The notes below the pieces were generated by a model, which had not been told where the DNA came from, searched no databases, and saw only the letters and a list, made by a program, of their open reading frames with translations. The translations under genes were made by a program, and so were the position numbers. Of a DNA stretch of 64,000 bases, positions 10,573-63,969 are shown in pieces. Every line of letters begins with the position of its first letter. Positions within the stretch are counted from its first letter, which is position 1. Origin of the DNA: an uncultured Spirochaetaceae bacterium (GTDB lineage: Bacteria; Spirochaetota; Spirochaetia; SZUA-6; Bin103); the NCBI GenBank assembly GCA_964618015.1, contig CAZTZA010000004.1, positions 1,440-65,439 of the forward strand, written 5' to 3'.

Positions 10573-12009
10573 ATGAACATTGGTAACCGTAAACAGCTGC
10601 TTGTAGATAATTATGTGGTCGAAGATACGTGGAATCTTAAAAGGGTTGTCACAAGGCCGGTTAAGCACCACAAAAACCCGGTACTGTTAGCAGATCAGCC
10701 GTGGGAGGATTACAGTCGCCCTGGTCATCGGAGCAATAACAAGAGTCTGCATGCTACCGCTGTGCTGTACGATCAAGACGAAGGGTTATTTAAGCTTTGG
10801 TATAATTCTTCTCATTTTGTGCACTGGAACAGTCCTGAGGACAACACTTTTACTTATTGGATTGGCTACGCGACCTCTCAAGATGGGCTGGTATGGGAGA
10901 AGCCTAACGTTGGCTTGTTTGATTTTAACGGATCTAAGGAAAACAATGTTGTCCTTACAGGTGAATGGTGGGCGACTGGCGGTACGGTGCTTAAGGAGAA
11001 TCATGAGACTGATCCATCACGACGCTATAAACTGCTTTACACTGATATTTTTGGGGTTCAATCCCCAGAACGACTAGTTGAAGACGCGAAGGCTCACAAG
11101 CTGCGTCCCGGGATTTGTATTGCTTACTCGCCTGATGGAGTCCATTGGACTCCTCATGGAACTAATCCTGTAATCGAGGGTGAGTCCGATACGATGAACA
11201 CCATGTTCTGGGATGAACAACTTGAACGCTATGTCCTCTTCATGCGCCCACCCGTTTATGCCGGGCGTTGGAAGCGTCGTGTGGCACGTGCAGAGAGCCC
11301 TGATCTCATCAGATGGAGCTTCCCCGAGACGGTGGTAACACCCGATGAGCTTGATCCAGTCGAGATGTATGGAATGCCAGTGTTTCCTTACGAAGGGATC
11401 TATTTCGGGTTGTTGCAGATGTACTATTCTGACACTTCGATGACCATCGATACGCAATTGACTTTCAGTCGTGACGGAATTCTGTGGGATCGTTTGCCGA
11501 CACGTGAGACCTTTATGGAGCGAGGGATCGAACACGGTCAAGCGCGAGAATTTGATCGTGGGATGTTGTTTCCATTGCCTCCGGTCACTGTTGGAGATGA
11601 GTTGTGGTTTTACTACACTGGCCATAATGTCCTCCACAATGAGAAATCCGGATCTAATGAAAGTTCTGTTGGTTTAGCCATACTCAAACGCGATCGCTTT
11701 ATTGCCCGGACGCCTGTTCGTCCAAATGATGGGGTCTTGGTGACCAAGTCGTTTCCGTGTGAAGGGGACGAACTTTCAATAAACGCGTCAGCGTCGAATG
11801 GGCAAATTCAGGTAGAAGTGCTTACTGAAGCTGGAGAGGTCGTTGAAGGATTCGGCCGTGACGAGTGTCAACCATTCAAGAGCGATTCGTTCTCTCACTC
11901 TGTGCAGTGGAAGCGGGGAGCTCTGTCCTCCATTCGTGGCACAAGGATTCGGTTTAAATTTTTTCTAAACGAGGCTAGCTTGTACGCGTTCCAAGTCATG
12001 GAGCGGTAG
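10573..12009 (+). CDS. Putative glycoside hydrolase, five-bladed β-propeller fold (GH43/GH32-clan-like) with a C-terminal β-sandwich
   Basis: Repeated 'W..dG..W' blade-like motifs, acidic residues in the 'LLVDNYVVED' N-terminal blade, and the overall ~480 aa architecture. Family not resolved from sequence alone. Confidence 0.4.
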   Translation: MNIGNRKQLLVDNYVVEDTWNLKRVVTRPVKHHKNPVLLADQPWEDYSRPGHRSNNKSLHATAVLYDQDEGLFKLWYNSSHFVHWNSPEDNTFTYWIGYATSQDGLVWEKPNVGLFDFNGSKENNVVLTGEWWATGGTVLKENHETDPSRRYKLLYTDIFGVQSPERLVEDAKAHKLRPGICIAYSPDGVHWTPHGTNPVIEGESDTMNTMFWDEQLERYVLFMRPPVYAGRWKRRVARAESPDLIRWSFPETVVTPDELDPVEMYGMPVFPYEGIYFGLLQMYYSDTSMTIDTQLTFSRDGILWDRLPTRETFMERGIEHGQAREFDRGMLFPLPPVTVGDELWFYYTGHNVLHNEKSGSNESSVGLAILKRDRFIARTPVRPNDGVLVTKSFPCEGDELSINASASNGQIQVEVLTEAGEVVEGFGRDECQPFKSDSFSHSVQWKRGALSSIRGTRIRFKFFLNEASLYAFQVMER

Positions 12010-13560: not shown

Positions 13561-14259
13561 ATGAATTTTCTAGGAACTCTTTCTGATGGATCTTATCGAG
13601 GACGCGGATTAGCGTTGGGTTTGGCGCCAGACGGTGAGCAATTAGCAATTGTCTACTGGATAACGGGTCGGAGTGCACGTAGCCGCAATCGACGGTTGGT
13701 AGAATTGACCAATGGTACTTTGTGCACAGAATTCATTGATACTACTCGTCGTGACAATCCAGCGTTAGTAGTTTACCCGCTACTGATGAATCTTGGAGTC
13801 ACTTACGCGATCAGTAATGGAGAACATACCAAGCCAATTTTGGAGGCTGTGAATTCCGGAGACACTCTGGAGCGCGCGATCCAGGAGTGGACAGTCGAGC
13901 CTGATGAACTCAACACGCCGCGGATCGTAGGGACTGCATCTGACAAATCGCCCGATTCATGCCGTATCGGGTTGGTGCGCACGAGTGTTAGTACTGTGAG
14001 AACAGAGACGGAGCGCTGTGTGTTTTGCTACAGCTGTCTGTTGCCAGGATCTGGGCGCTGCATTTCTACCTATGCCGGTGGTTCTATGGAGCCTACACCT
14101 TTTGTGGGGGATCCTTTGAGTGTGACTTTCGAGGGCAACGTGGATGCGACCTGTGCGCGATTTCGGGACGCTTTGGCCGGTCCTCTATTGGTTAGCGTTG
14201 CTGCTCGTTTCGTTGGGCACGGCAAATGCTATACCGCTATAGCTAACCTGCAGGAGTGA
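13561..14259 (+). CDS. purO: IMP cyclohydrolase, archaeal PurO-type (IMP_cyclohyd family)
   Basis: 'AISNGEHT' corresponds to PurO 'VVSNGSHT', and 'EPDELNTPRIVGTA' to PurO 'EKDELNTPRIAAA'. Length ~230 aa. This rests on my recollection of archaeal PurO sequences. Confidence 0.55.
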   Translation: MNFLGTLSDGSYRGRGLALGLAPDGEQLAIVYWITGRSARSRNRRLVELTNGTLCTEFIDTTRRDNPALVVYPLLMNLGVTYAISNGEHTKPILEAVNSGDTLERAIQEWTVEPDELNTPRIVGTASDKSPDSCRIGLVRTSVSTVRTETERCVFCYSCLLPGSGRCISTYAGGSMEPTPFVGDPLSVTFEGNVDATCARFRDALAGPLLVSVAARFVGHGKCYTAIANLQE

Positions 14260-17239: not shown

Positions 17240-18094
17240 GTGGAAAGTGTAACGAGCGGCGGGCAAGGTGGATCCGGTCAAATTACTTGGTGGTTGGTGA
17301 TCTGGTACTACGTAGTACCGGTGGCAGGAGTTATAGCCGTTGTGTATATACTCACTCTCCTGCAGGCACGAGCGGAAAATGCCGCCACGGAGTTTGCACG
17401 CTCAGTTCAGCTTGGGACAGCGTTCGGAGCGGGCATAGTTGCGAGCGTCAATCCATGCGGCTTCATTATGTTACCTACATACCTGTCGTTGCAGTTAGGC
17501 ACACAGGAGTCAGGGGGCACTAATGAACCTTGGCTTCACCGGGTGGTATCGGTGGTACGCATTTCTGTCGCTACTACGATGGGTTTTATTGGCGTAGTAG
17601 CCCCAGTGGGAGTATTGGTAGCGTTAGCAGGACAGGCGCTTTCGCCAATTTTGCCGTATGCAGCGGTGACGGTAGGATCCGGAATGGTCGGGCTGGCTTT
17701 ATGGCTCCTGGTCTCCGGCCGCAAGCTTGGCATTGCCGCCGCCAGCCGTGTTCATGTAACGCCTAGTCGCAACACAGTGAATGCATTACTGTTTCGCATG
17801 ACGTATTCCATCGCATCGTTGAGCTGCGCTTTGCCAATTTTCCTGTTGGTGGTATCGACCGCACTGACTTCCGGCGGTTTTCTGTCCACGATTGCGCAGT
17901 TCGTGAGCTACGCTCTTGGAATGGGAACGGTAATCACAGTGGTCACTGTCGCTGCTGCAGCACTCCGTAACTCACTATCCCAACATTTGCGCGTGTTAAT
18001 GCCGGTCGCCAACCATGTCGGCGTACTGTTCCTCCTTGGGGCAGGAGCTTATTTGATCTACTATTGGGTATTGATAGCTCCGAACGCCTTTTAG
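17240..18094 (+). CDS. ccdA: Cytochrome c-type biogenesis protein CcdA (DsbD-like transmembrane thiol transfer)
   Basis: Multi-TM protein with the first conserved Cys in 'VNPCGFIMLPTYL' and the second in 'LSCALPIFLL'. GTG start. Confidence 0.7.
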   Translation: MESVTSGGQGGSGQITWWLVIWYYVVPVAGVIAVVYILTLLQARAENAATEFARSVQLGTAFGAGIVASVNPCGFIMLPTYLSLQLGTQESGGTNEPWLHRVVSVVRISVATTMGFIGVVAPVGVLVALAGQALSPILPYAAVTVGSGMVGLALWLLVSGRKLGIAAASRVHVTPSRNTVNALLFRMTYSIASLSCALPIFLLVVSTALTSGGFLSTIAQFVSYALGMGTVITVVTVAAAALRNSLSQHLRVLMPVANHVGVLFLLGAGAYLIYYWVLIAPNAF

Positions 18095-24161: not shown

Positions 24162-25088
24162 GTGATTCATCGATTTCTCATTGGTATCTCATCTAGCAAC
24201 GGCACGCCGCGCGCTCAGGTTGACTTGGACGGCGCGGGTAAGCGTCACCTTGGCATTCAGCGGTTCGTGCTATCCGACGGTACTGATGCCGTCTTGCCCG
24301 ATCATCCTACTTGGGATTGTCGCGAGTGGCAGTGGTGGGCTGGTTATGACGGCTCGACGGAGATGAGGCCGCGCACAGAATCTGCAGTATGCGGAGGTTC
24401 TGAACGTGACGATGTAGCCGAGGTTTGGAGCGAGTATCTTTGTGACGGCGTACGGACGCGACACGTATGGACTGTTCCTACTGTTCAAGAGCCACCGAGT
24501 CTTGGTTACGATTGTTTCATCACTGTCACTAATGAAACGGGGACTGACCTTAGAGAGTATGGTCAGTTCTTCGCCTGCTACACTAGTCTCAACCGGACCA
24601 TGGGTAAAAGGCCTGCTCGGTCGGATGCAATAGGCTGCTGGTTCTGGGATGGATCAGGAAGTTTAGTCAATTTCCTCGCGATCGGTGGTTACCATATAGA
24701 TCGCCTAATCGTTGACCCAGAAAGTGTCTATTCGAAGATAGGCATGGTTCCCCATTGCCCGCGTGGAGATGGTCGCGTCGGCGGGGTTTGGACGCACCCA
24801 GTAATAGTTTCTCATCCAGCTCCAGGTGGTGAGCGTCATATTATCCTTCTCGAGCCAGGAACTACCGCAGCAGTGTGTATGGGTATGGGAGGACTAGCGA
24901 TGGACTACATTGTCTTTCCAGGGTCTCTCGTGTTCGCTGCTGGAAGCAGCAGTAGGACCAGGGTTAGGCACTATGTCATGCCCCTTCCAGAAGGCAAAGA
25001 GATCGAACGTTTAAGCGAGCTCTGGGCAGAATTCGAAATAGACCTCCATCAGCCATGGCCGACTATCGGTCCAACGCAGGCTAAATAG
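24162..25088 (+). CDS. Hypothetical protein, 308 aa, Trp/Cys/Gly-rich, no recognisable family
   Basis: Long ORF with a GTG start 40 nt after the upstream gene, co-oriented with the operon. I recognise no motif. Confidence 0.45.
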   Translation: MIHRFLIGISSSNGTPRAQVDLDGAGKRHLGIQRFVLSDGTDAVLPDHPTWDCREWQWWAGYDGSTEMRPRTESAVCGGSERDDVAEVWSEYLCDGVRTRHVWTVPTVQEPPSLGYDCFITVTNETGTDLREYGQFFACYTSLNRTMGKRPARSDAIGCWFWDGSGSLVNFLAIGGYHIDRLIVDPESVYSKIGMVPHCPRGDGRVGGVWTHPVIVSHPAPGGERHIILLEPGTTAAVCMGMGGLAMDYIVFPGSLVFAAGSSSRTRVRHYVMPLPEGKEIERLSELWAEFEIDLHQPWPTIGPTQAK

Positions 25089-32598: not shown

Positions 32599-33171
32599 AT
32601 GAGTTGGCAGGAATTCAGAGCAGGTGCGATTCGATATTTCACAGTGCTAGGGGTAATCACCGCGATCATTGTAATAGTCGCCCTGTTTTCACTACGAACA
32701 AAAGTCGCAAGTAAGTTGTATGAGCATCGTGCAGGGCGTAGTGTTGTTGGAGTATGGGAGGGCGAGCGTGAGTCGGGAACGCTCAAAGACATTCCGTTGA
32801 TCCGAGCTCGATGGGTGTTCACAGAAAGTAGCTTTACGTTAAATACTGACTACTATTATGAGGATTCCGGTGCGTGGCAGCGTGTCCACGAGATGCAGGG
32901 TGATTATGAATATATTCGGAAAGGTGGTCTAAGACCTTCAAAGGTGTCGTTGAGCAGCGTAACTGTGCGGAGGGCCAGCAGCTCCAAAAGTACAGACCCA
33001 ATTAATCTACGGTATGCGTTACGGCTGGATCCAGTAGATGACACAATGGATAAGTGGAATTCTCCAAGGATTGAATACCCGGATTTAACCGTTCGTTATT
33101 CAAAGGACAGCAAAACCCTGAGCATTGGCACGAATTTGATTGGGGTGGCCAGTTATGAAAAGGTCGAATGA
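32599..33171 (+). CDS. Hypothetical single-pass membrane protein (190 aa)
   Basis: One TM ('FTVLGVITAIIVIVALF') followed by a Tyr-rich soluble domain; no known motif. Confidence 0.4.
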   Translation: MSWQEFRAGAIRYFTVLGVITAIIVIVALFSLRTKVASKLYEHRAGRSVVGVWEGERESGTLKDIPLIRARWVFTESSFTLNTDYYYEDSGAWQRVHEMQGDYEYIRKGGLRPSKVSLSSVTVRRASSSKSTDPINLRYALRLDPVDDTMDKWNSPRIEYPDLTVRYSKDSKTLSIGTNLIGVASYEKVE

Positions 33172-37706: not shown

Positions 37707-40046
37707 TCAACGGACTAATCGCTTAAATCCTTCCTCCGGCAGCGGGCCGCGCATTCGATCCACGATGTCACCTTTGCGAATAGCATCGGCTAATTCGGCC
37801 ATTACTTGCTCCATCGCCACTGCGTGCTTATTTAATACCTCTTCGGTATGTGCCATCGAGCAGTAGATTGAAGGGGGTGCCAAGAAGCCGCGCTCAAGCA
37901 TGAGATGGGTATATAGGTTGCTGAGTTCACGTCCTTGCTCGTGATCGAAGCTGGCGCTGGCAAAACACGGATAGTTGTCAGAAACCACCATTGGTATTCC
38001 TGCCGCTTCGGAGTGCTTGCGCCAGTCCTCTTTGACGCGATTTCCGACCTTAGCCACGAAAGCGGGTACATCTAGTTGTTGCGTCATCTTCTTAACTGCT
38101 GCTACTGCTGCCGCGGGTCCCACTCCCTCAGTCCAATAGCTTGAGGAGATAAAGGAGCGTTCAGCTCCCTCCATTGCAGAGGCAGTTCCAATAACTGCGC
38201 CAATTGGGTGGCCATTACCGAGGCTTTTGCCAAATGCTGCTATATCAGGATTGACGCCGAAAAGTGCATGAGATCCAGCTGTTGCCAATCGGAAACCTAT
38301 GGAGGTCTCATCAAAGATGAGGAGTGCTCCAACGCGATGTGCTTCGTCTCTAATGTGCTCCAGATATCCTGGCTCCGGGTCCTTTCCTCGGCAAGGTTCC
38401 ATCACTACCGCCGCAAGCCTATCGCCGTATTCGGCAATTATGCGGTCAAATCCAGATGCATCTCCCTGCTCAAAGACATGGGCAGTGCCTCGCAATTCAC
38501 GCGGTACGCCCAGTGGTTCCAGACCGGGCATCAGATTCCCAGCGAGTGCTTCTTCTTCACCTAGATTGGCAGCTAGATACCAATCATGCCAGCCATGATA
38601 GCCACTGACAGCTACTACCGAGCGGTCCGTGGTAGCACGAGCGATGCGGACTGCTACAGTCATGGTTTCTCCCCCAGTACGCGCCAAACGAACACGCTCC
38701 GCCCAAGGGTGAAGTCCACACATCAATTCAGCTAGCTCAATCTCCTCGCGTGGGTTTAGTTGGCAACAACTCCCCAGGCTGACTCGTCTTACTACTGCAC
38801 GCGTTACGTCTGGGTCTCGGTAGCCCAAAATGGTGGCGCCGACAGCGTGTGAACTGCAATCAAAAAAGTGTCTGCCTGCCTCGTCCCACACTTCGCAGCC
38901 TCGAGCCTCACGAAAATAGGGAGGCCAAACATCGGGAGCGAAACGGTCAGGATTCTTACTAAGTAAATGATTTCCGCGTGGGATGATAGTGAGCGCATGC
39001 TCATAACTCTTTTGACCAAGCTGGGGATCTACTTCACGCAGGCCGAGTAGTCGCTCGGCGTTATCACAGAAGATATCCTGTAGGTCGAGGTCGTTCAGTC
39101 CAAATCGGTCGCCTGCTTGAAAAATAGCCCGTAGTTCTTCGAGGCCAACTTGGATAGGTTGACCGAAGAAAGCCTGCTCATTCCAATCCAACTGATCAGT
39201 GGTAATCCAGGCGAAGCCACTGCCCAAGGTCATGTGTCGGCCGCGTTGGTGCGAGACTGGAAAGTCTGATCCGTACATCAGTTGCCGTGGCCCAAACTCC
39301 TCCAGGATCGCAATCATCGGCTCTGCCTCGCAGATTGCGGAAGTGTCAAACCAGATATTCTGCAACCCACGTAAGGAGCCGATTGCCTTGGTAGTATTAG
39401 GTCCGTGAAACCCTCGTGCCGCGTGCGCCAGAATTAGCTGCGCATTTGGGAAGCGTTCACATTTCTCACGGATCTGACGTTGGTTCTCCGGATCGTCTAG
39501 TGCAGGGTCTCGGACGATGTGTAACATGATGAACCAGCCTCGGGCATCTGCAACCTTCCAGGTCCATTCCGGCAGGAATTCGTCAATGTATGACTGTTGC
39601 GTGTCAGAGCGGTCACTGTAGCAATGGTAGCATTTAAAACCGCCTATTCCCTCGCCTTCGAGATGTTCTTCAACGTCAGAAAGTTCCGTGTGCGCATCGA
39701 CCAAATAGGCTCTAATATTCCTTGGTTGGCCTGAAACCTCTGCTTCCACAAAATCGTTTTTTGGGCCGATTGGCAAATCAGCTGAAGGGAAAGGCAGTAC
39801 TAGTGAGCCGACCATGCGGTCCTGGCCACCAAGCTGTCTGCCTACCAGTTTACGCCAGTCATCTAGTCTTACTTGCTCCGGTCCCCAATTAATCATTGTT
39901 CCGACCTGCGGGAAATGTGCTCTATCGTATAAATGCATGTGAGCGTCAAAAATGCGTTCTGGAACGCGTTTGGATAACTCTTCCGTTGCCTCCTGATCAG
40001 CGTTGGTTGTTTTCCATCCGGTCGCGAACTGTTCGTTCATCTGCAT
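37707..40046 (-). CDS. Bifunctional fusion: N-terminal amidohydrolase_2 (metal-dependent TIM-barrel hydrolase) plus C-terminal class-III (ω-type) PLP aminotransferase
   Basis: N-terminal half has 'FDAHMHLYD' (HxH metal motif), 'LILAHAARG' and 'MYGSDFP'. C-terminal half has 'GNHLLSKNP...EVWDEAGRHFFD' and the PLP-lysine context 'LIFDETSIGFRL...NPDIAAFGKSLGNGHPIGAV'. Single 779-aa frame. Confidence 0.7.
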   Translation of the reverse strand: MQMNEQFATGWKTTNADQEATEELSKRVPERIFDAHMHLYDRAHFPQVGTMINWGPEQVRLDDWRKLVGRQLGGQDRMVGSLVLPFPSADLPIGPKNDFVEAEVSGQPRNIRAYLVDAHTELSDVEEHLEGEGIGGFKCYHCYSDRSDTQQSYIDEFLPEWTWKVADARGWFIMLHIVRDPALDDPENQRQIREKCERFPNAQLILAHAARGFHGPNTTKAIGSLRGLQNIWFDTSAICEAEPMIAILEEFGPRQLMYGSDFPVSHQRGRHMTLGSGFAWITTDQLDWNEQAFFGQPIQVGLEELRAIFQAGDRFGLNDLDLQDIFCDNAERLLGLREVDPQLGQKSYEHALTIIPRGNHLLSKNPDRFAPDVWPPYFREARGCEVWDEAGRHFFDCSSHAVGATILGYRDPDVTRAVVRRVSLGSCCQLNPREEIELAELMCGLHPWAERVRLARTGGETMTVAVRIARATTDRSVVAVSGYHGWHDWYLAANLGEEEALAGNLMPGLEPLGVPRELRGTAHVFEQGDASGFDRIIAEYGDRLAAVVMEPCRGKDPEPGYLEHIRDEAHRVGALLIFDETSIGFRLATAGSHALFGVNPDIAAFGKSLGNGHPIGAVIGTASAMEGAERSFISSSYWTEGVGPAAAVAAVKKMTQQLDVPAFVAKVGNRVKEDWRKHSEAAGIPMVVSDNYPCFASASFDHEQGRELSNLYTHLMLERGFLAPPSIYCSMAHTEEVLNKHAVAMEQVMAELADAIRKGDIVDRMRGPLPEEGFKRLVR

Positions 40047-52305: not shown

Positions 52306-53472
52306 CTACAGTTCAGTCTCAAGGACCGTATATGTCTTAGACGGCAGTCCATTCATCATCTTAACCATATTCAGAACCGGGGTGTTGTTTTCCAGTACAT
52401 ATCCGATGTCGCAATATTCGTAACCCTGCTGTTGCGTGTAGAGCTTCTGCTTCCAGAGTAGTAGCCCTTCCAATCCACGGTTGCGAAACTTTTTCTTCAC
52501 GCCAAGGTAGCCGAGTCGAAGTCCTTTAATTCTATGCTTGGTCAGAAGCATTCGTGCTGCTCGGCATAGTTCAAAGCGCGGCCAAAGTCGTGATGGATGC
52601 ATCTGGTCAAGGATGTTTGGCACCCCTCCAAAGAAGGCAGCAGCTTCGCCTTCCCAATAGGCGATAGAGAATTGGCCCCGATCAACGATGAGCTTCTCGG
52701 CCTCCACTACTTTGTAGAATTCCTCAGCGCGATACGGCACGAAGCCCCAGTTGTCGTTCCAGGCATCGTTGTAAATTTCGAGCATCTCTCGCTTGCGTTC
52801 CTCAAGAGGGCGCTCGCTCCAGGTCTCAAAGACTACATTTCCACGTTTCTGCACGATTTCGGCTACTCGCTGGAGCTTAGCCTCCATCGGGACGTGCACC
52901 TGGACTTCCCAAGAAAGCATTTTTTTCACTGGATGCATCCCAGCGGCTATCAATAGATCATGATAATACGGCTTATTGTAATGATAGTAGATGACTGGAC
53001 GCGAATCGAATCCATCGGTCAGCACCCCTGGTGTAGCCTGGTTCACAGGCAAGTTTTGAGGTCCGCGCATAGTATTCATGCCGTGTTCGCGTAACCAGTC
53101 ACCTGCTGCGCGTAGCAGGCCGGCAGAGACTTCTTCGTTCTCGATTGACTCGAAACAGCCGAAGAAACCAGTTTGCTCTTTCCAGTGCTGGTTATGGTCC
53201 TCATTAATGAAGGCGATGCAGCGTCCAACTATCTGTTCTTGATCGTCATGCGCTAGAAAGAAGGCTATGGTGGCATGCTCTAGAAAAAGCGATCGGGCTT
53301 CAAAATAGCCGTCAATGCCCAACAATCGAAACCCCAAGTATTCGTAATCTAGTAGCGGAATATACTGTTGATCATCGCGGTAATGGCTCCAGTGGAAGCC
53401 GACGAAGGCGCGTAGTTTGGAGCGCACGTCCTTATCCTCGTGGGAGAACCGCGTAACTTTTATCCTGCTCAC
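52306..53472 (-). CDS. GNAT-fold acyltransferase-like protein (long, ~388 aa)
   Basis: C-terminal CoA-binding motif 'LGVKKKFRNRGLEGLLL' (Q/RxxGxG/A). Confidence 0.5.
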   Translation of the reverse strand: MSRIKVTRFSHEDKDVRSKLRAFVGFHWSHYRDDQQYIPLLDYEYLGFRLLGIDGYFEARSLFLEHATIAFFLAHDDQEQIVGRCIAFINEDHNQHWKEQTGFFGCFESIENEEVSAGLLRAAGDWLREHGMNTMRGPQNLPVNQATPGVLTDGFDSRPVIYYHYNKPYYHDLLIAAGMHPVKKMLSWEVQVHVPMEAKLQRVAEIVQKRGNVVFETWSERPLEERKREMLEIYNDAWNDNWGFVPYRAEEFYKVVEAEKLIVDRGQFSIAYWEGEAAAFFGGVPNILDQMHPSRLWPRFELCRAARMLLTKHRIKGLRLGYLGVKKKFRNRGLEGLLLWKQKLYTQQQGYEYCDIGYVLENNTPVLNMVKMMNGLPSKTYTVLETEL

Positions 53473-58523: not shown

Positions 58524-59204
58524 CTAAAATTTCTTCTGGTCCATAGGCTTGGCCAGTATTTTTGATGCTGCTTGAGTTCCAATAGTCACGGCCCCAAGTT
58601 CAGTTTGCAAGGTAATCGCGTCGGCGGCTCGATCCAGCAGTTCAACCGTGACGCTCTTACCGGGATGCAATTTGCTACGGTGTACGAATTGTAGAAACTC
58701 TGGATCTTGATCTGTGACACGCTTTATCTGAAGCTCGACCTGTGGCGGTTGCTCTATGAGACTATCAAAGACTGTTTGGTCAACCTGACCTCGGTGGGTC
58801 GGTATAGGGTCGCCGTGTGGATCTACTGACGGAAAGTCCAAGAGGGCGTCAATCCGCGATAGAACGAGGTCAGAGATGGCGTGTTCCAGGCTGTCAGCCT
58901 CGCCGTGTACCTCAGACCAGTCAAGTCCTACAACCTCAACCAGGAACAGCTCGACGAGTCTGTGGCGCCGAAGTACGTCCAGTGCCAGAGATTCTCCGGA
59001 ATCAGTTAAGCGACTACCGTTTCGTGGCTCGTAATTGATTAGGCCGAGTCCTGCTAATGTTTTCATCATAGAGGTGGCAGTCCCGGGGGATACGTCCATC
59101 GCGTCGGCGATCTGGCCCATCGGCAGGAACTTCTCTGGACGGTCACGGTGGCCCAAGTAGATCGCCTTGACATAGTTCTCGACCGTGCTTGAGTAGACGC
59201 TCAT
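58524..59204 (-). CDS. DtxR/MntR family metal-dependent transcriptional regulator with a C-terminal FeoA/SH3-like domain
   Basis: 'ENYVKAIY', the HTH 'LAGLGLINYEPRNGSRLTDSG' and the metal-site 'HRLVELFLVEVVG...EVHGEADSLEH'. Confidence 0.8.
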   Translation of the reverse strand: MSVYSSTVENYVKAIYLGHRDRPEKFLPMGQIADAMDVSPGTATSMMKTLAGLGLINYEPRNGSRLTDSGESLALDVLRRHRLVELFLVEVVGLDWSEVHGEADSLEHAISDLVLSRIDALLDFPSVDPHGDPIPTHRGQVDQTVFDSLIEQPPQVELQIKRVTDQDPEFLQFVHRSKLHPGKSVTVELLDRAADAITLQTELGAVTIGTQAASKILAKPMDQKKF

Positions 59205-59986
59205 GGCTTTGGGTCTGAGGCTCGTGCTGCGCCAGTACTCATTCCGCCATCTACTAGTAGTATCTGGCCAGTGACGTACGCGGATTCATCCGAGGCGAGA
59301 AATACTACAGCACCGTCCAAGTCAGACGGCATTCCGAGTCGTTTCAGCGGTATCCGGTCGATAATGTAGTCACGCCATTCAGCGTCTTCGAATAGTACCT
59401 CTGTTTGTGCGGTCCGGAACCAGCCGGGAGCTAGGCAGTTAACTGTGATTCCGTGAGAACCTAAAGTGTCGGATAGCGCACGTGACATTTGTAGCACACC
59501 GCCACGGCTCGCAACGTAAGGGACGATGGCGCCAAAGCCGAACACGCTGGTGACTGAGCCGATGTTAATTATCCGACCGTAACCATTTTTAATCATTGAA
59601 GGAGCAAGTACCTGCGTGACAAAAAAAGCTCCACGTAAATTGGTGTCTAGAACCTTGTTCCAGTCGTCCCATGTGGTTTCTTGGAATGGCTTGCGCACAT
59701 TGCAGCCGGCATTATTGACTAGAATGTTTACTGCTCCAATTTCTTCCGTTACTGCATGTCCAAAAGCGCGAATACTGGACTCTGATCGAATGTCTAGTGA
59801 GTATGCACGTGCCGTGCCACCCGACGAATCGATTTGATCAATAGTCTCGGCGCAGTCACGGGCATCACGTGCGGTAAGCACGAGCGAAGCCCCGGCGCGG
59901 GCTAACGCCCTACTCATGAAGTTACCAAGACCACGACTGGCCCCCGTTACTACTGCAGTGCGTCCGCTAAGGTCAAAGGAACTCAC
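59201..59986 (-). CDS. SDR family oxidoreductase
   Basis: 'RTAVVTGASRGLG', 'NNAG' and 'YVASRGG' (YxxxK-like; K replaced by R). Confidence 0.75.
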   Translation of the reverse strand: MSSFDLSGRTAVVTGASRGLGNFMSRALARAGASLVLTARDARDCAETIDQIDSSGGTARAYSLDIRSESSIRAFGHAVTEEIGAVNILVNNAGCNVRKPFQETTWDDWNKVLDTNLRGAFFVTQVLAPSMIKNGYGRIINIGSVTSVFGFGAIVPYVASRGGVLQMSRALSDTLGSHGITVNCLAPGWFRTAQTEVLFEDAEWRDYIIDRIPLKRLGMPSDLDGAVVFLASDESAYVTGQILLVDGGMSTGAARASDPKP

Positions 59987-60453
59987 GGGAAGTCTCTGAT
60001 CGTTGCCATCTCAAGGGCTGCTAGTGCAGCCTCGCACCCGCGATTCACCGTTCCTCCTGAACGAGCAATAGCCTGATGTCGGTCGTTGGCACTGACCACA
60101 CCCAGCAGGATTGGTACGTCAGTGCTAAGTCCGACCTGGGTAATACCCGTCGCTACTGCAGTTCCCACCAGTTCATCGTGGTTTGTTTCTCCCTTCATTA
60201 TGCATCCTACGCAGATAACGGCACTCACCTTTTCATACCGAGCTAGGTACTTGGCAGCAAATGGCAACTCGAATGAGCCTGGGACCCATAAGATGCGTAC
60301 ATCTCCTGCTTTGACGCCATGCTTGATGAGGGTCGTCAGTGCTCCGTCGACTAGGCGCTGGGTAATATCATAGTTGAATCTGCTAGCCGCAATAGCAAAT
60401 CGCTGACCTGTGCCTTCTAAAACCACTGGCGGAGGGGGTGTTGCTATTTTCAT
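59983..60453 (-). CDS. ribH: 6,7-dimethyl-8-ribityllumazine synthase RibH
   Basis: 'RFAIAASRFN', 'VPGSFELP' and 'VGCIMKGETNHDELV' lumazine-synthase motifs. Confidence 0.9.
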   Translation of the reverse strand: MKIATPPPPVVLEGTGQRFAIAASRFNYDITQRLVDGALTTLIKHGVKAGDVRILWVPGSFELPFAAKYLARYEKVSAVICVGCIMKGETNHDELVGTAVATGITQVGLSTDVPILLGVVSANDRHQAIARSGGTVNRGCEAALAALEMATIRDFP

Positions 60454-61682
60454 GAATATAGTTGCGCGACGTGCAACATTGGCAGGGCCATCCGGCGCGC
60501 TAGTATCCGAAGTTCTGCTCGTCGCGCCATATAACCGTCGTCATCAAGGACTGGGCAGATAGCGGCGGCTGGAGGTACTCCTGCACGAGAAGCTAGCTCG
60601 ACTGCTGCCTCAGTGTGTCCCTGGCGCGTGGATAGGCCTCCTGGATGGGCTGCAATGGGAAAGATATGCCCGGGTCTGGCGAAATCTCCAGGTGAGGCAT
60701 CTGGATCAGCCAAAGCACGTAATGTAATAGCTCGGTCATGCGCGGATTCTCCGCTGGTCGTTCCCTTAGTAGCGTCAATTGAAACGGTAAAGCGTGTACC
60801 ATGTAGAGCAGTGTTCAACGCTGTCATTGGAGCGAGTTGCAGTTGCTCCGCTCTATCCGGGGTGATTGCTGCACATAACACGCCGCTTGCTTGTCGTAGC
60901 ATGCGAGTTACTGTTTTTGATGTAATCAGGGCTGCGGCAGCTACAAGGTCACCTTCGTTTTCTCGATCCACGTCGTCAACTAGCAACACCATTTTCCCTC
61001 TAGCCATTGCGTCAGTTGCATCTTCAACAGTTGCCATCGTTGGAACTGCTGTGCTGGTCTCAGTGGAGACTGGGTTGTAGGTTGATGTGTCGCGGTTGCC
61101 GGCCAATCGTTCAACATACTTGGCGATCATGTCTACTTCTACATTGACTTGATCGCCGACGTGTCGGTCAGTGAGTGCGGTGGCATGGGCAGTGTGAGGA
61201 ATGATTGAAAATCCAAGCAGATCGTTTTCAAGACTCGCGACCGTGAGGCTTACACCGTCGATTGCGATTGAACCTTCCAGCACAACGTATGGGAGCAAGG
61301 TCTTCGGTAGTTGAATTGTGAGCCAGCGTGCAGTTCCAAGATCTTGCCAATGACAGATTGTGGCAGTGTCATTCACGTGGCCTTGCACTAGGTGTCCATC
61401 AACCCGGTTTCCGTAGGCTATAGGTCGCTCTAAATTAACACGTCGACCTGCGGAGAAGGATCCGAGGGTGGTCTTTTGTAGAGTCGCGCCAACGCTGTCG
61501 ATAAGCAGCGAATCGTCTTCAAGAGAAACGACGGTTTGACATACTCCGTCAACCGCGATCGAGGATCCGACTTCGGTGCCGTCGAGTACGGTGCTGGCCC
61601 TAATAGATATACGGGCCGCATCAGCATTGGAGTGATGAACCCCGGTGACAACACCGACTTCCTCTATGATACCGCTGAACAT
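60450..61682 (-). CDS. Fusion of riboflavin synthase (RibE, N-terminal) and 3,4-dihydroxy-2-butanone-4-phosphate synthase (RibB, C-terminal); no GTP cyclohydrolase II domain
   Basis: N-terminal 'MFSGIIEEVG', the internal repeat 'VDGHLVQGHVND' and 'KYVERL' mark RibE. After a Ser/Thr linker, 'ARGKMVLLVDDVDRENEGDLV' through '...HIFPIAAHPGG' is RibB. The protein ends without a RibA domain. Confidence 0.8.
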   Translation of the reverse strand: MFSGIIEEVGVVTGVHHSNADAARISIRASTVLDGTEVGSSIAVDGVCQTVVSLEDDSLLIDSVGATLQKTTLGSFSAGRRVNLERPIAYGNRVDGHLVQGHVNDTATICHWQDLGTARWLTIQLPKTLLPYVVLEGSIAIDGVSLTVASLENDLLGFSIIPHTAHATALTDRHVGDQVNVEVDMIAKYVERLAGNRDTSTYNPVSTETSTAVPTMATVEDATDAMARGKMVLLVDDVDRENEGDLVAAAALITSKTVTRMLRQASGVLCAAITPDRAEQLQLAPMTALNTALHGTRFTVSIDATKGTTSGESAHDRAITLRALADPDASPGDFARPGHIFPIAAHPGGLSTRQGHTEAAVELASRAGVPPAAAICPVLDDDGYMARRAELRILARRMALPMLHVAQLYS

Positions 61683-62833
61683 CCAGATTCCTGAGGCTGC
61701 ATTTTATTAGTCTGCCCGACCGTTGAGGCGATCGATCGGTAGCCAGAGATGACTGCCTGATCGTTAATCTGTTGATGGCTGACCCTTTCCAGACGCAGTG
61801 CATCGATCAGTTGAGAGATTCTCAGATCACCAACGGACTCAGTTCCGGTGCCGATGATTATCGGCGCCACGACTGCCACTAGCTTGTCAAACAGTCTTAG
61901 TCGGATGAATTCCGTATGGAGTGCTGCCCCGCCTTCTACCAGCAGTGAGGTCACGCCAGTTTCCGCTAGGGTAGTTAGTACCTGATCTAGGGAAACCTTG
62001 CCGTCTTTCGTGCTACCGACGACAGTGACCCGCGCGCCGGCATGCTCTAGGGCAGTACGCGCGTTTAGATCGTGTCGTTCGGTGGTAAACACTTGCGGCG
62101 GCCGCTCACCTGATAGCATACGAGAATTTTTTGGAAGTCGTAGGGTAGAGTCGATCACTATTGGCAACGGCGGACGGTCACGCAGAGGGGTAGCTAATCG
62201 CACCGTTAGCTCCGGATCATCGGTCAGAGCCGTCTCGATGCCAACCATAATTGCATCGTGGCATGCCCGGAGCTCATGAACCATCACTCGAGCTTCGTGG
62301 TCAGAGATCCAGCGAGAATCGCCCTCGTCGGTGGCGATCCGTCCATCAATGGATTGAGCGACCTTTAAAGTTACAAACGGTGTGCCAGCACGATGGAACT
62401 TGAAATGCACGGCATTTAATAGAACGGCCTCGGCTTCTAACACGCCTTCGATTACCTTGATACCGGCATCACGCAACATGCGCACGCCAGCTCCATCAAC
62501 CTTTGGATGGGGGTCAGAGGTGGCGATTACCACGCACCGCACCCGTTCGTGAATAATTTGTTGTGCGCATGGCGGTGTGTGCTTTTCGACACCAGTCCAG
62601 CAGCACGGCTCAAGATTGGTGTACAGGGTTGCACCCTCGGCACCACCGGAAGCCTTAGCTCGGGAAAGAGCTACTGATTCGGCGTGTTCCCCACGGTCGG
62701 AAAGGTAGCCTTCTCCGACGACGCTGCCGTCTCTGAGTACGAGGGCAGCAGTCAATGGGTTGGGCGACGTACGCCACTGCCCGTGGCTTGCCAAATCTAG
62801 CACCCTGCGCATCATCTGTTCGTGATCAGCCAT
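61664..62833 (-). CDS. ribD: Bifunctional diaminohydroxyphosphoribosylaminopyrimidine deaminase / 5-amino-6-(5-phosphoribosylamino)uracil reductase RibD
   Basis: Deaminase Zn motifs 'HAE' and 'LEPCC...PCA', and the reductase domain 'VTLKVAQSIDGRIA'. Start placed at the internal ATG ('MADHEQMMRRVLDLA'). Confidence 0.85.
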   Translation of the reverse strand: MADHEQMMRRVLDLASHGQWRTSPNPLTAALVLRDGSVVGEGYLSDRGEHAESVALSRAKASGGAEGATLYTNLEPCCWTGVEKHTPPCAQQIIHERVRCVVIATSDPHPKVDGAGVRMLRDAGIKVIEGVLEAEAVLLNAVHFKFHRAGTPFVTLKVAQSIDGRIATDEGDSRWISDHEARVMVHELRACHDAIMVGIETALTDDPELTVRLATPLRDRPPLPIVIDSTLRLPKNSRMLSGERPPQVFTTERHDLNARTALEHAGARVTVVGSTKDGKVSLDQVLTTLAETGVTSLLVEGGAALHTEFIRLRLFDKLVAVVAPIIIGTGTESVGDLRISQLIDALRLERVSHQQINDQAVISGYRSIASTVGQTNKMQPQESGCSAVS

Positions 62834-62921
62834 CGCCTTTGTTTCATCGCGGGGCTCTGGATCAGCGCAGAAGCAGCCGGCGCCCAACTCTCACATGGGA
62901 CGCACATGGGCCTACGCCCAA

Positions 62922-63080
62922 CCGAACTTCTCCTATCCGGACTTTACCGTCGGCACCGGAATTTCACCGGTTCCTACCCAATACTTACGAATCAGGCTCA
63001 CGGGCTATCACCGTCGGTCTGGAATAGGCGCCAGTCATGACGCCGCACCATGCCCCGAAGTTCTCTTCTAATGAACAGGC
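62922..63080 (-). promoter_or_regulatory. FMN riboswitch (RFN element) in the ribD leader
   Basis: The minus strand reads 'AGAAGAGAACTTCGGGGCATGGTGCGGCG...GACCGACGGTGATAGCCCGTGAGCC...CCGGTGAAATTCCGGTGCCGACGGTAAAGTCCGGATAGGAGAAG'. This matches the conserved RFN blocks (UCUUCGGGGCAGGGUGAAAUUCCC / GCCGACAGUAUAGUCUGGAUGGGAGAAG), including the P1 5'/3' complementarity. Confidence 0.8.
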
Positions 63081-63246: not shown

Positions 63247-63969
63247 CTACAATACTGCTCGGCGACCAAATGTGAGAGTCATCGGATCTTCAACGGGCAC
63301 CGGTCCGCGCATCAAGTAAGGTTCTCCATATTCGACACCGATCAGCGATCCGTAATAACGGTTCCGGCCTTCCCAGGCATCTAGGAAGCTATCCGCTGAG
63401 ATGGCTGTCTCAGGCTCACCACGCGTTGGGTCATAAAGTTGGGAGCGGTAACATGCGACTGCCTTTCGCTTACGTTGCCAGTGGTCGCTAATGTCTACCA
63501 CTAGCGAAGGGCGGAATTGGTAACGTGCCATATAGTGAAGGATTGACTCGGGTCGATGTGGGGAACCAATACCAGCGTGCTTCCCAACACCCGCTAACCA
63601 CCATGCTTCCTGAGATTGAAGACTTGTGTTGGTGTGGTCGGGATGGTGATCTTCCCAGTAAGGTGCGATTATCAGTCGTGGCCGGTGAGCTCGGATTACC
63701 TCGATGAGTTTAATTCTATTCTCAATCGTACAGGTCACCGCACCGTCTGGGAGATCGAGGTTTATACGCTCATCCAATCCCAACACGAGCGCGGCTTCAG
63801 TAGCCTCCTGGTCTCTCTCAGCTGCAGTGCCCCTTGTACCTGCTTCGCCGTGGGTGAGATCGCATACCCCGATCGATGCGCCAGATGACTTGGCTCGCAA
63901 CAGCAATCCCGCACAATTCAGCTCGGCATCATCAGGGTGGGCGCAGAACGCCAGAACATCCAATGCCAT
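63247..63969 (-). CDS. PIG-L/LmbE family N-acetylglucosaminyl deacetylase (BshB1/MshB-like)
   Basis: 'LAFCAHPDDAEL', 'GVCDLTHGEAGTRG' and 'HPDH' metal-site motifs align with BshB1. Confidence 0.7.
   Translation of the reverse strand: MALDVLAFCAHPDDAELNCAGLLLRAKSSGASIGVCDLTHGEAGTRGTAAERDQEATEAALVLGLDERINLDLPDGAVTCTIENRIKLIEVIRAHRPRLIIAPYWEDHHPDHTNTSLQSQEAWWLAGVGKHAGIGSPHRPESILHYMARYQFRPSLVVDISDHWQRKRKAVACYRSQLYDPTRGEPETAISADSFLDAWEGRNRYYGSLIGVEYGEPYLMRGPVPVEDPMTLTFGRRAVL

What the first reader, a model, noticed from the sequence alone, without database searches (positions are those of the whole stretch)
60450..61682. Riboflavin synthase fused to DHBP synthase; operon lacks a GTP cyclohydrolase II domain
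The 410-aa protein reads as a complete RibE, with both pseudo-repeats 'MFSGIIEEVG' and 'VDGHLVQGHVND', followed by a Thr/Ser linker and a complete RibB ('VLLVDDVDRENEGDL'). The usual partner of RibB is RibA, and here the RibA domain is missing. The operon (FMN riboswitch – ribD – ribE::ribB – ribH) therefore lacks the first committed enzyme. That enzyme must be encoded elsewhere or replaced, for example by an archaeal-type GTP cyclohydrolase III, which would fit with the archaeal-type PurO in the same window.
Basis: partly seen in the sequence, partly recalled or inferred. Interest (0 to 1): 0.6.

Follow-up and report, generated by a model that had tools for sequence, protein, structure and literature searches.

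The report
Riboflavin synthase–RibB fusion, altered active site
This is a real fused gene for two riboflavin-pathway enzymes, found across a group of marine bacteria; the missing first enzyme is probably just encoded elsewhere, and the unexpected part is that the second half has lost a normally invariant catalytic glutamate and gained one at another active-site position.

Summary
Window 60450-61682 (-) encodes a 410-aa protein made of a canonical RibE (aa 1-193), a disordered Thr/Ser linker, and a full-length RibB domain (aa 216-410). It lies in an FMN-riboswitch operon, ribD–ribE::ribB–ribH, which continues into an SDR and an MntR/DtxR-like gene.

The fusion is not an artefact. The identical protein occurs on three independent metagenome contigs. 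About 115 protein clusters share the architecture, and the closest genomes are marine MAGs labelled Spirochaetia.

No GTP cyclohydrolase II was found in the 64-kb window or within ±10 kb of the fusion in 11 related loci. I could not search whole genomes, so an unlinked ribA, as in E. coli, remains the most likely but unproven answer. Nothing supports a GCH III replacement.

In the window's clade (41/41 sequences) the near-invariant Glu174 (E. coli numbering) is Pro. Position 109 is Glu instead of Ile/Val/Thr, and position 94 is Arg (98%). All three lie in active-site loops. The same Pro174/Glu109 pair appears in one unrelated RibBA out of about 410 others surveyed. The domain shows no accelerated decay, so I favour an active enzyme with a relocated carboxylate over a dead domain.

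The parts
62921..63066 (-). FMN riboswitch aptamer (RFN element) upstream of ribD
   Evidence: Rfam RF00050, 93.4 bits against a gathering score of 66.2, E=3.3e-20, full model 1-138. No intrinsic terminator was found by the simple scan.
61664..62887 (-). ribD (deaminase + reductase). The real start is probably the ATG at 62834. Its 3' end overlaps the fusion gene by 19 nt.
   Evidence: Pfam dCMP_cyt_deam_1 + RibD_C; TIGR00326 at 264.7 bits (cutoff 156). Sequence read. Gene called as 389 aa on L001.
60450..61682 (-). ribE::ribB fusion gene (410 aa + stop)
   Evidence: A 100% identical protein occurs on 3 independent contigs. About 115 clusters share the architecture.
61104..61682 (-). RibE (riboflavin synthase) domain, aa 1-193: two lumazine-binding barrels, with Phe2, Ser41, Cys48 and His102 conserved
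   Evidence: NF006767 at 206 bits, above the cutoff of 155. Invariant columns in alignment A1. PDB matches 9ryj, 4e0f, 1kzl and 1i8d. pLDDT mostly 85-95.
61038..61103 (-). Thr/Ser-rich interdomain linker, aa 194-215 (the predicted disordered stretch is aa 187-213)
   Evidence: AlphaFold2 pLDDT is below 50 for residues 187-213, and pTM is 0.53. Linker length varies among homologues, which are 404-447 aa long.
60453..61037 (-). RibB (DHBP synthase) domain, aa 216-410. Retained: R240, E241, E243, D245, C270, H339, R353, H356, T357.
   Evidence: PF00926 E=2.7e-69. TIGR00506 at 188.7 bits, above the cutoff of 177. PDB 1tks, 7uez, 4p6d and 1g57 at E around 1e-47 to 1e-52. Conservation analysis.
60552..60554 (-). 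Pro377 codon (CCA), at the position of the conserved Glu174 (E. coli RibB numbering; Glu175 in V. cholerae)
   Evidence: Pro in 41/41 clade-A sequences. Glu in 74/76 other fusions, 69/69 RibBA from loci, 146/147 50%-representatives and 119/119 further RibBA. Aligned to the Glu of 'ICE' in the solved structures. Codon checked.
60747..60749 (-). Glu312 codon (GAA) at position 109 of loop 4 (TTSGES), where other RibB have Ile/Val/Thr
   Evidence: Glu in 41/41 clade-A sequences. Otherwise Glu only in P0326, which is also the only other sequence with Pro174. Loop 4 (103'-111') lines the partner subunit's active site (PMC5228156).
60792..60794 (-). Arg297 codon at position 94 of loop 2, usually Ala
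   Evidence: Arg in 98% of clade A. Ala in 74/76 clade B and 61/69 RibBA. Loop 2 (82-98) lines the active site (PMC5228156).
60753..60755 (-). Ser310 codon at the position of the conserved Thr107 (a peculiarity of this window; most of clade A keeps Thr)
   Evidence: Thr in 95% of clade A, 141/148 representatives and 119/119 RibBA. PMC5228156 reports that the Thr-to-Ser mutant of the M. jannaschii enzyme lost activity.
59983..60453 (-). ribH (lumazine synthase), 156 aa; its start overlaps the fusion's stop by 4 nt (ATGA)
   Evidence: PF00885 E=1.5e-46; TIGR00114 at 135.7 bits, above the cutoff of 84.6. Junction read.
59201..59986 (-). SDR oxidoreductase, translationally coupled to ribH by a 4-nt overlap (GTGA); specific function unknown
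   Evidence: adh_short_C2 E=7e-59. Only generic NCBIfam matches. Conserved in this position in L004-L006. An aldo-keto reductase takes this place in L088.
58524..59204 (-). MntR/DtxR-family metal-dependent repressor with a FeoA-like domain; last gene of the co-directional string (4-nt overlap)
   Evidence: Fe_dep_repr_C, Fe_dep_repress and FeoA. MntR-like at 150 bits, below the cutoff. Conserved downstream of ribH in L004, L087, L088 and L091.

Best explanation
**What it is**
The ORF is a genuine gene fusion fixed across a lineage. A canonical riboflavin synthase (RibE) is tethered by a flexible Thr/Ser linker of about 25 residues to a full-length DHBP synthase (RibB) domain. It is expressed from an FMN-riboswitch-controlled, translationally coupled operon: ribD–ribE::ribB–ribH(–SDR–mntR-like). 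The carriers are marine bacteria whose nearest genomes are MAGs labelled Spirochaetia.

**How it likely works (inferred)**
The RibB half makes DHBP from ribulose-5-phosphate. RibH condenses DHBP with the pyrimidine to give lumazine. The RibE half dismutates two lumazines to riboflavin and returns one pyrimidine, which needs another DHBP. Tying RibB to RibE instead of to RibA places DHBP supply next to pyrimidine recycling. It also frees the 2:1 RibB:RibA flux ratio from a 1:1 fusion.

**GCH II**
GTP cyclohydrolase II is not part of this operon in any member examined. It is most probably an unlinked ribA gene, as in E. coli. This is inference, not shown.

**The remodelled active site**
In the window's clade the RibB active site has changed. 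The proposed general acid/base Glu174 is Pro. A Glu has appeared at position 109 in loop 4, which closes the partner subunit's active site. An Arg has appeared at position 94 in loop 2. I read this as relocation of the catalytic carboxylate in an enzyme that is still active.
For: **The fusion is real**
- Domain calls are strong.
- The identical protein occurs on 3 independent assemblies.
- About 115 homologous clusters of 404-447 aa carry PF00677+PF00926 only.
- True single-ORF fusions occur in Spirochaetia MAGs L007, L008, L010, L011, L012 and L015.
- The AlphaFold2 model has two confident domains and a disordered linker.

**Operon**
- The riboswitch is confirmed.
- Gene overlaps are 19, 4, 4 and 4 nt.
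- The ribD–fusion–ribH core is conserved in all 11 contexts.

**No GCH II nearby**
- None in the window, and none in the flanks held around the fusion (up to ±10 kb).

**Active-site remodelling**
- Of about 44 near-invariant RibB columns, clade A differs only at 168, 171 and 174.
- Pro174 and Glu109 are each 41/41 in clade A and essentially absent elsewhere.
- The single other Pro174 sequence, P0326, also has Glu109, although its nearest relatives are canonical.
- Positions 94, 109 and 174 fall in loops 2, 4' and 3, which line one active site (PMC5228156).

**Still under selection**
- Within clade A the RibB domain is 86.5% identical, against 89.4% for RibE.
- Identity to outgroups is 45.5% for clade A and 46.5% for clade B.
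- All metal and substrate ligands are retained.
Against: - Glu174 is proposed as a general acid/base. This is Liao et al. 2002, Biochemistry 41:1795, recalled from memory and not retrieved here. It is invariant in about 408 of 411 other RibB sequences, so its loss could mean loss of activity.
- The window protein also has Thr107 replaced by Ser. PMC5228156 reports that this change inactivated the M. jannaschii enzyme.
- I could not measure the distance between residue 109' and the substrate. No coordinates were available, and the site spans a dimer interface.
- The covariation rests on only two lineages, one of them a single orphan sequence.
- The presence of ribA elsewhere was not shown. My attempt to find it by matching contig lengths failed.
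- Clade A sequences are closely related (about 87% identical), so '41/41' represents few independent events.
Confidence: 0.6

Rival explanations
1. The fused RibB domain of this clade is a catalytically dead or vestigial domain, kept for folding, assembly or ligand sensing. A canonical ribBA, or ribB plus ribA, elsewhere in the genome supplies both DHBP and GCH II activity.
For: - The otherwise near-invariant Glu174 is lost in 41/41 clade-A sequences, and Thr107 is also changed to Ser in the window protein.
- PMC5228156 cites loss of activity for the Thr-to-Ser mutant in M. jannaschii.
- There is precedent for bipartite RIBA proteins with one inactive half: AtRIBA2 and AtRIBA3 (PMC3509567).
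- PMC9305975 mentions 'vestigial, non-active' RibB forms.
- It would explain the Glu loss and the missing GCH II together.
Against: - All other catalytic and ligand residues are strictly kept: R37, E38, E40, D42, C67, H136, R150, H153, T154.
- The domain is as conserved as RibE and no more diverged from outgroups than clade B.
- The substitutions are specific and fixed. They include a new Glu and a new Arg in active-site loops, and the Pro174/Glu109 pair recurs in P0326. This looks like remodelling rather than decay.
- Clade B fusions have a canonical active site and also lack GCH II nearby.
Confidence: 0.25
2. The lineage has no GTP cyclohydrolase II at all. It makes the pyrimidine precursor by a non-orthologous route: an archaeal-type GCH III (ArfA) plus a formamidase (ArfB/BrbF).
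For: - No GCH II lies in the window or in the flanks held around the fusion (up to ±10 kb) in 11 related loci.
- A GCH II-independent route with a creatininase-family formamidase exists in bacteria: BrbF in Sinorhizobium and Brucella (PMC9478397).
Against: - No GCH III or creatininase family was seen among 46 window ORFs scanned against Pfam, nor in the Pfam-annotated gene tables of the seven relatives fetched with the look-up of encoding contigs (L004, L087-L091 and L001).
- An unlinked ribA is common and is the simplest explanation (PMC13151069, PMC3509567).
- The PurO-like gene, offered as an 'archaeal flavour', is a weak match and says nothing about riboflavin.
- 64 kb plus about 20 kb per relative is a small fraction of a 4-7 Mb genome.
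Confidence: 0.1
3. The fusion is an artefact of a frameshift, a sequencing error or a chimeric assembly joining ribE to a truncated ribBA.
For: None found. Error-prone assemblies can split or join rib genes, as in the frameshifted ribBA of L092 and L093.
Against: - The identical 410-aa protein occurs on three contigs from different projects.
- More than 100 clusters at 43-77% identity share the architecture with variable linkers.
- Complete long-read chromosomes carry it.
- ribH starts 4 nt before the stop codon, leaving no room for a lost GCH II domain.
Confidence: 0.01

Closest known systems
Bifunctional RibBA (DHBP synthase / GTP cyclohydrolase II; B. subtilis RibA, M. tuberculosis RibA2, plant RIBA1)
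   Same: The RibB domain is of the RibBA type. The best NCBIfam matches are to the RibB half of RibBA models. It is 46-52% identical to the RibB domains of Calditrichota and Melioribacter RibBA. Both are fusions that include RibB, in an FMN-riboswitch rib operon.
   Different: The fusion partner is RibE at the N-terminus, not GCH II at the C-terminus. No PF00925 domain is present. Glu174 is replaced by Pro.
Stand-alone RibE (riboflavin synthase; E. coli RibC/RibE, PDB 1I8D; S. pombe 1KZL; Brucella 4E0F)
   Same: It has the two-barrel Lum_binding architecture, an N-terminal MF(S/T)GI motif, and conserved Ser41, Cys48 and His102. It scores above the NCBIfam equivalog cutoff.
   Different: It carries a C-terminal RibB domain of about 200 aa. 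Joining a trimer-forming enzyme to a dimer-forming one implies a different quaternary state. It probably could not be enclosed in a RibH capsid as in the Bacillus 'heavy riboflavin synthase'. Both points are inference.
Triple fusions RibE–RibB–RibA (P0112, P0114, P0118) and RibE::RibB followed by a separate ribA (L108-L110)
   Same: They share the N-terminal RibE–RibB order and are 40-47% identical to the window protein.
   Different: They keep GCH II in cis or immediately downstream, and they keep Glu174.
Bipartite riboflavin proteins with one inactive half (Arabidopsis RIBA2 and RIBA3)
   Same: A conserved catalytic residue is replaced in a domain that otherwise looks intact (PMC3509567).
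   Different: In those proteins several essential residues are lost and loss of activity has been shown. Here there is one loss, paired with a gain of Glu at a neighbouring active-site loop, and activity is untested.
P0326, an orphan RibBA-like protein (JGI Ga0315338_1000001)
   Same: It is the only other RibB found with the Pro174 + Glu109 pair.
   Different: It is not fused to RibE. It stands alone outside a rib operon. Its GCH II half has degenerate motifs. It is only 45% identical to the window's RibB domain.

Membership tests
Riboflavin synthase (RibE; NCBIfam NF006767 / TIGR00187) | Two tandem lumazine-binding barrels, scoring above the family cutoff | tested here: met
   PF00677 matches twice, E=1.2e-41. 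NF006767 scores 206 bits (cutoff 155) and TIGR00187 scores 181.5 bits (cutoff 156.6), over aa 1-193.
Riboflavin synthase (RibE; NCBIfam NF006767 / TIGR00187) | N-terminal MF(T/S)GI motif with Phe2, plus the conserved Ser41, Cys48 and His102 (roles recalled from the literature) | tested here: met
   M1, S41, C48 and H102 are invariant, and F2 nearly so, in the 33-sequence alignment A1. Codons checked.
Riboflavin synthase (RibE; NCBIfam NF006767 / TIGR00187) | Homotrimer that dismutates 6,7-dimethyl-8-ribityllumazine | not testable with these tools
   Needs biochemistry or a multimer structure.
DHBP synthase (RibB; PF00926 / TIGR00506) | Full-length domain scoring above the curated cutoffs | tested here: met
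   PF00926 scores 233 bits (cutoff 26.4) over profile positions 1-189 of 191. TIGR00506 scores 188.7 bits (cutoff 177.45).
DHBP synthase (RibB; PF00926 / TIGR00506) | Acidic loop DxxRENEGD with the metal ligand Glu38, the second metal ligand His153, and Asp42, Cys67, His136, Arg150 and Thr154 | tested here: met
   R240, E241, E243, D245, C270, H339, R353, H356 and T357 are all present and 100% conserved in clade A. Glu39 and His154 are the metal ligands in V. cholerae (PMC9305975).
DHBP synthase (RibB; PF00926 / TIGR00506) | Glu174 (E. coli / M. grisea numbering), the proposed general acid/base at the start of loop 3 | tested here: not met
   The window has Pro377. Clade A has Pro in 41/41. 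Glu occurs in 146/147 representatives, 119/119 and 69/69 RibBA, and 74/76 clade-B fusions.
DHBP synthase (RibB; PF00926 / TIGR00506) | Thr107 of loop 4 (Thr108 in V. cholerae), described as strictly conserved | tested here: not met
   The window has Ser310. Thr occurs in 95% of clade A, 141/148 representatives and 119/119 RibBA. PMC5228156 covers its conservation and the inactive Thr-to-Ser mutant.
DHBP synthase (RibB; PF00926 / TIGR00506) | Conversion of ribulose-5-phosphate to DHBP plus formate | not testable with these tools
   Needs an enzyme assay or ΔribB complementation.
Bifunctional RibBA | C-terminal GTP cyclohydrolase II domain (PF00925) | tested here: not met
   There is no PF00925 hit. 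RibBA models match only positions 1 to about 200 and score far below their cutoffs. The stop codon is followed directly by ribH.
FMN riboswitch-regulated rib operon | RFN element upstream of co-directional rib genes | tested here: met
   RF00050 scores 93.4 bits against a gathering score of 66.2, at 62921-63066 (-), about 90 nt upstream of the ribD ATG.
Archaeal-type / GCH II-independent first step (ArfA GCH III + ArfB/BrbF formamidase) | Presence of a GCH III (PF05165) or creatininase-family (PF02633) gene | tested here: not met
   Neither family appears among 46 window ORFs scanned against Pfam, nor in the Pfam tables of the related loci. About 17 window ORFs (transporters, repeat proteins, short ORFs) were not scanned, and the rest of the genome is not testable here.

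The most novel reading that the evidence does not exclude
These bacteria have no GTP cyclohydrolase II anywhere and start riboflavin synthesis with a non-orthologous enzyme, a still-unidentified bacterial route of the kind implied by BrbF. Their RibE-fused DHBP synthase works with its general acid/base moved from loop 3 in cis to loop 4 of the partner subunit. That rearrangement arose at least twice (clade A and P0326).
Probability: 0.08. Interest if true: 0.8.

Novelty: new variant of a known kind. Interest (0 to 1): 0.45.

Why it matters
- RibB chemistry is unusual and still debated: dehydration, a 1,2-shift and deformylation in one site (PMC9305975). A natural, conserved variant lacks the near-invariant Glu174 but has gained a Glu on the lid loop of the neighbouring subunit. 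This offers a ready-made test of which residue acts as the acid/base and whether it can act in trans.
- The fusion pairs the DHBP-producing enzyme with the last enzyme of the pathway instead of the first. This speaks to how flux (2 DHBP per GTP) and pyrimidine recycling are organised.
- For annotation: these proteins are currently named only 'DHBP synthase'. tblastn hits that look like fusions are mostly adjacent ribE and ribBA genes.
- If whole-genome searches show that ribA really is absent, the lineage would be a clean system for finding the missing bacterial GCH II-independent first step.

Tried and rejected
1. **Finding the clade's ribA by contig-length matching.** I searched the 5.8-billion-protein set with the GCH II domain of the closest RibBA (Calditrichota, L009). 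I then looked for hits whose longest contig equals a contig that carries the fusion. None matched. The two stand-alone GCH II hits on long contigs are frameshifted ribBA of other organisms.

2. **Genome-contig scan with the fusion.** It gave the taxon labels. Most of the 80 'full-length' matches turned out to be separate ribE + ribBA genes.

3. **Metagenome-contig scan with alignment A1.** The derived patterns were too generic, and it returned mostly ordinary ribE/ribBA. It did reveal other fusion lineages (L108-110, L114-119).

4. **P0326 as a partner gene.** I tested whether P0326, which has the Pro174/Glu109 pair, is the clade's second rib gene.

5. **Literature on RibE–RibB fusions and Glu174.** No paper describing the fusion was found. 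The role of Glu174 rests on my recollection of Liao et al. 2002. Islam et al. 2015 was not held.

6. **Neighbouring genes as GCH II substitutes.** The PIG-L gene upstream is BshB1, and the SDR is generic. Both were rejected as candidates.

7. **Artefact hypothesis.** Rejected.
Full report
**1. The observation**

Window 60450..61682 on the minus strand is one uninterrupted 410-aa ORF.
- Pfam finds two lumazine-binding repeats (PF00677, E=1.2e-41) and a complete DHBP synthase domain (PF00926, aa 220-409, E=2.7e-69). There is no GTP cyclohydrolase II domain.
- NCBIfam places aa 1-193 above the equivalog cutoff for riboflavin synthase: NF006767 at 206 bits (cutoff 155) and TIGR00187 at 181.5 bits (cutoff 156.6).
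- It places aa 216-408 above the cutoff for ribB: TIGR00506 at 188.7 bits (cutoff 177.45).
- The bifunctional RibBA models match only through their first ~200 positions and stay far below their cutoffs.
- An AlphaFold2 model built from a 33-sequence alignment gives two confident domains and a disordered stretch at residues 187-213. The pTM of 0.53 indicates no fixed inter-domain orientation.

**2. The operon**

- An FMN riboswitch lies at 62921-63066 (-), at 93.4 bits against a gathering score of 66.2.
- It is followed by ribD (61664-62887, probable ATG at 62834), the fusion gene, and ribH (59983-60453).
- The string continues into an SDR oxidoreductase (59201-59986) and an MntR/DtxR-family repressor (58524-59204).
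- Successive genes overlap by 19, 4, 4 and 4 nt.
- ribH begins 4 nt before the fusion's stop codon, so there is no space for a lost C-terminal domain.

**3. The fusion is real**

- A 100% identical protein is encoded on three short contigs from different projects, including TARA Oceans assemblies.
- Of the best 120 homologous clusters, about 115 are 404-447 aa long and carry PF00677+PF00926 only. Three are triple fusions that also carry PF00925.
- These fall into two groups:
  - clade A: 68-77% identical to the window, sequences P0002-P0041;
  - clade B: 43-52% identical.
- The nearest species-representative genomes are complete or near-complete MAGs labelled Spirochaetia or Spirochaetales. 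L007 (OZ244929.1) and L008 (OY759747.1) are 71-72% identical. L010, L011, L012 and L015 are about 48% identical.

A caution applies here. Most of the other 'full-length' tblastn hits in that scan are not fusions. When I translated the loci and ran domain HMMs, they resolved into separate ribE and ribBA genes. The architecture is therefore much narrower than the hit list suggests.

Other independent-looking RibE::RibB fusions do exist:
- L108-L110, with a separate ribA ORF immediately downstream;
- L114, L115, L117, L118 and L119. Four of the five carry REGEGD in place of RENEGD; no such motif was found in L119.

I found no paper describing the fusion. [quoted passage not shown]

**4. The missing GTP cyclohydrolase II**

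- A GCH II HMM built from the C-termini of the triple fusions finds nothing in a six-frame translation of the whole 64-kb window. The best E-value is 1.1.
- Pfam scans of 46 window ORFs show no GCH II, GCH III or creatininase family.
- In 11 loci holding up to ±10 kb around the fusion, the ribD–fusion–ribH core is conserved and no GCH II is present. These are L004, L007, L008, L010, L011, L015 and L087-L091.

Whether ribA lies elsewhere in the genome could not be tested.
- Matching the contig lengths of GCH II hits to contigs that carry the fusion found nothing.

Stand-alone ribA and ribB genes at unlinked loci are normal in many bacteria, with E. coli as the standard case (PMC13151069, PMC3509567). 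An unlinked ribA is therefore the default expectation, at about 0.8.

A bacterial GCH II-independent route is known in outline. The creatininase-family formamidase BrbF acts in Sinorhizobium and Brucella, and the ring-opening enzyme is still unidentified (PMC9478397). Nothing here points to that route.

The 'archaeal PurO' used as supporting colour is only IMP-cyclohydrolase-like. It scores 4e-25 against PF07826 but 43 bits against an NCBIfam cutoff of 150.

**5. The unexpected part: a remodelled RibB active site**

Reading the alignment around GHTEA, every clade-A sequence has AAICPVLDDDG where all others have ..ICEI... This Glu is Glu174 of E. coli RibB, which I counted on the E. coli sequence recalled from memory. 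The window's Pro377 aligns to the Glu of the 'ICE' motif in the solved C. albicans, V. cholerae and other structures.

A column-by-column comparison used 41 clade-A fusions, 76 clade-B and other fusions, and 69 RibBA RibB domains from the fetched loci.
- Of about 44 near-invariant columns, clade A departs only at 168, 171 and 174, all in one segment.
- Glu174 is replaced by Pro in 41/41. Elsewhere it is Glu in 74/76 and 69/69.
- Clade-A-specific gains include Glu at position 109 (41/41, against Ile/Thr/Val elsewhere) and Arg at position 94 (98%, against Ala elsewhere).
- The window protein also has Ser at the conserved Thr107.
- The complete clade-A chromosomes carry the same motifs, and clade-B genomes carry the canonical ones.
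- GAA/GAG to CCA needs two base changes, and the change is shared across assemblies, so it is not a sequencing error.

A full HMMER search of 1.84 billion cluster representatives with the RibB domain gave 148 diverse sequences.
- Glu174 is present in 146 of the 147 that have a residue there.
- The single exception, P0326, has Pro174. It is also the only one with Glu at 109.
- P0326 is a stand-alone RibBA-like gene on a 3.2-Mb contig, outside any rib operon.
- Its closest homologues are 50% identical. All 119 of them have Glu174 and Ile/Val109.
- The Pro174/Glu109 pair therefore occurs in two lineages whose relatives are canonical, and never singly.

**6. Interpretation of the remodelling**

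PMC5228156 describes each V. cholerae RibB active site as lined by five loops:
- loop 1 (34-41), loop 2 (82-98) and loop 3 (175-185) of one subunit;
- loop 4 (103'-111') and loop 5 (132'-138') of the other subunit, with loop 4 acting as a lid.

In that numbering the three clade-A changes are at 95 (loop 2), 110' (loop 4) and 175 (the first residue of loop 3). All three line the same cavity.

From memory, Liao et al. 2002 (Biochemistry 41:1795) proposed Asp41, Cys66 and Glu174, together with the Asp99-His136 dyad of the partner subunit, as general acid/base groups. I could not retrieve that paper.

The rest of the catalytic apparatus is intact in clade A: Arg37, Glu38, Glu40, Asp42, Cys67, His136, Arg150, His153 and Thr154. 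Glu39 and His154 are the metal ligands in V. cholerae (PMC9305975).

The domain is not decaying.
- Within-clade identity is 86.5% for RibB against 89.4% for RibE.
- Its distance to outgroup RibBs (45.5%) equals that of clade B (46.5%).

I therefore favour an active DHBP synthase whose carboxylate has moved to the lid loop of the partner subunit, at about 0.5. The alternatives are:
- a vestigial domain, with precedent in AtRIBA3 (PMC3509567), at about 0.25-0.3;
- altered chemistry, for the remainder.

The Thr107Ser change in this particular window protein counts against activity. The equivalent M. jannaschii mutant was reported inactive (PMC5228156). However, 7 of the 148 representatives also have Ser there.

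**7. How the fusion probably works (inferred)**

One riboflavin needs one GTP-derived pyrimidine and two DHBP. RibE returns one pyrimidine per turnover, and RibH must recombine it with a fresh DHBP.
- A RibE::RibB polypeptide places DHBP production next to that recycling step.
- It also uncouples RibB dosage from RibA, which a RibBA fusion fixes at 1:1 (the stoichiometric argument is in PMC3509567).
- RibE is a trimer and RibB a dimer in the solved structures (established knowledge). The fusion should therefore form a higher-order assembly. It could hardly be enclosed in an icosahedral RibH capsid as in Bacillus.
- None of this was tested.

**8. Comparison and novelty**

- The closest relatives of both halves outside the fusion clades are the ribE and ribBA genes of Calditrichota and Melioribacter, at 47-54% identity.
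- As a domain architecture, this is a new combination of two well-known enzymes. It is recurrent but narrowly distributed, and unremarked in the literature I could search.
- The missing ribA in the operon is ordinary until shown otherwise.
- The Pro174/Glu109/Arg94 active site is, as far as my survey of about 410 other RibB sequences goes, a new variant of DHBP synthase.

**Overall:** I rate this as a new variant of a known kind, of moderate interest.

Noticed in passing
L174 10001-11095 (protein P0326; JGI Ga0315338_1000001, 3.2 Mb): An orphan RibBA-like protein. It is the only other RibB found with Pro at Glu174, and it also has Glu at position 109. Its GCH II half has degenerate motifs (HAGC…, YIVRPEDTGSNIL). 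It stands alone, away from other rib genes.
   Followed up: partly
L108 9881-12078; L109 572-3015; L110 9848-12117: A different RibE::RibB fusion lineage, about 40% identical and actinobacteria-like in sequence. A separate GCH II ORF lies immediately downstream, so RibB is split from RibA and joined to RibE.
   Followed up: partly
L114 8006-9343; L115 9812-11218; L117 4453-5736; L118 1283-2725; L119 900-2276: A third RibE::RibB fusion group, 35-37% identical. In L114, L115, L117 and L118 the acidic loop reads REGEGD instead of RENEGD (no match found in L119), and no GCH II lies in the loci. Glu174 is kept.
   Followed up: no
L047 2429-3672; L048 2038-3221; L069 5153-6336: Freshwater Bacilli/Bacillota MAGs with adjacent ribE and a stand-alone ribB of about 204 aa, and no GCH II in the fetched locus. 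This is another rib cluster without ribA.
   Followed up: no
window 59201-59986 (-) and 58524-59204 (-); L088 11781-12668: An SDR and an MntR/DtxR-like repressor are translationally coupled to ribH by 4-nt overlaps. In a clade-B genome an aldo-keto reductase occupies the SDR's position. The repressor and a convergent hisD are conserved next to the rib genes in both clades. This may reflect a link between riboflavin and metal regulation, or dicarbonyl detoxification, but that is speculation.
   Followed up: partly
window 13561-14259 (+): The 'archaeal PurO' is IMP-cyclohydrolase-like only. It scores E=4.3e-25 against PF07826, but the NCBIfam IMP cyclohydrolase equivalog scores 43 bits against a cutoff of 150.
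   Followed up: partly
window 63247-63969 (-): The gene just upstream of the riboswitch is bacillithiol deacetylase BshB1 (TIGR04001, 254 bits against a cutoff of 182.5). That is unexpected for a lineage labelled Spirochaetia. It is conserved next to the rib operon in L001, L004 and L005.
   Followed up: no
window 37707-40046 (-): A 779-aa protein combining an Amidohydro_2 domain (aa 127-336) with a class-III aminotransferase domain (aa 378-673). This is an unusual fusion.
   Followed up: no
window 52306-53472 (-), 10516-12009 (+), 24162-25088 (+), 17240-18094 (+), 32599-33171 (+), 57-668 (+): Sizeable ORFs (190-497 aa) with no Pfam family at E<=1e-4 or 1e-5.
   Followed up: no
L092 8813-10693; L093 9316-10681: Apparent stand-alone ribB and ribA genes here are a ribBA split by frameshifts in error-prone long-read assemblies. 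The gene calls overlap or abut in different frames. This is a warning for domain-architecture counts from such data.
   Followed up: partly
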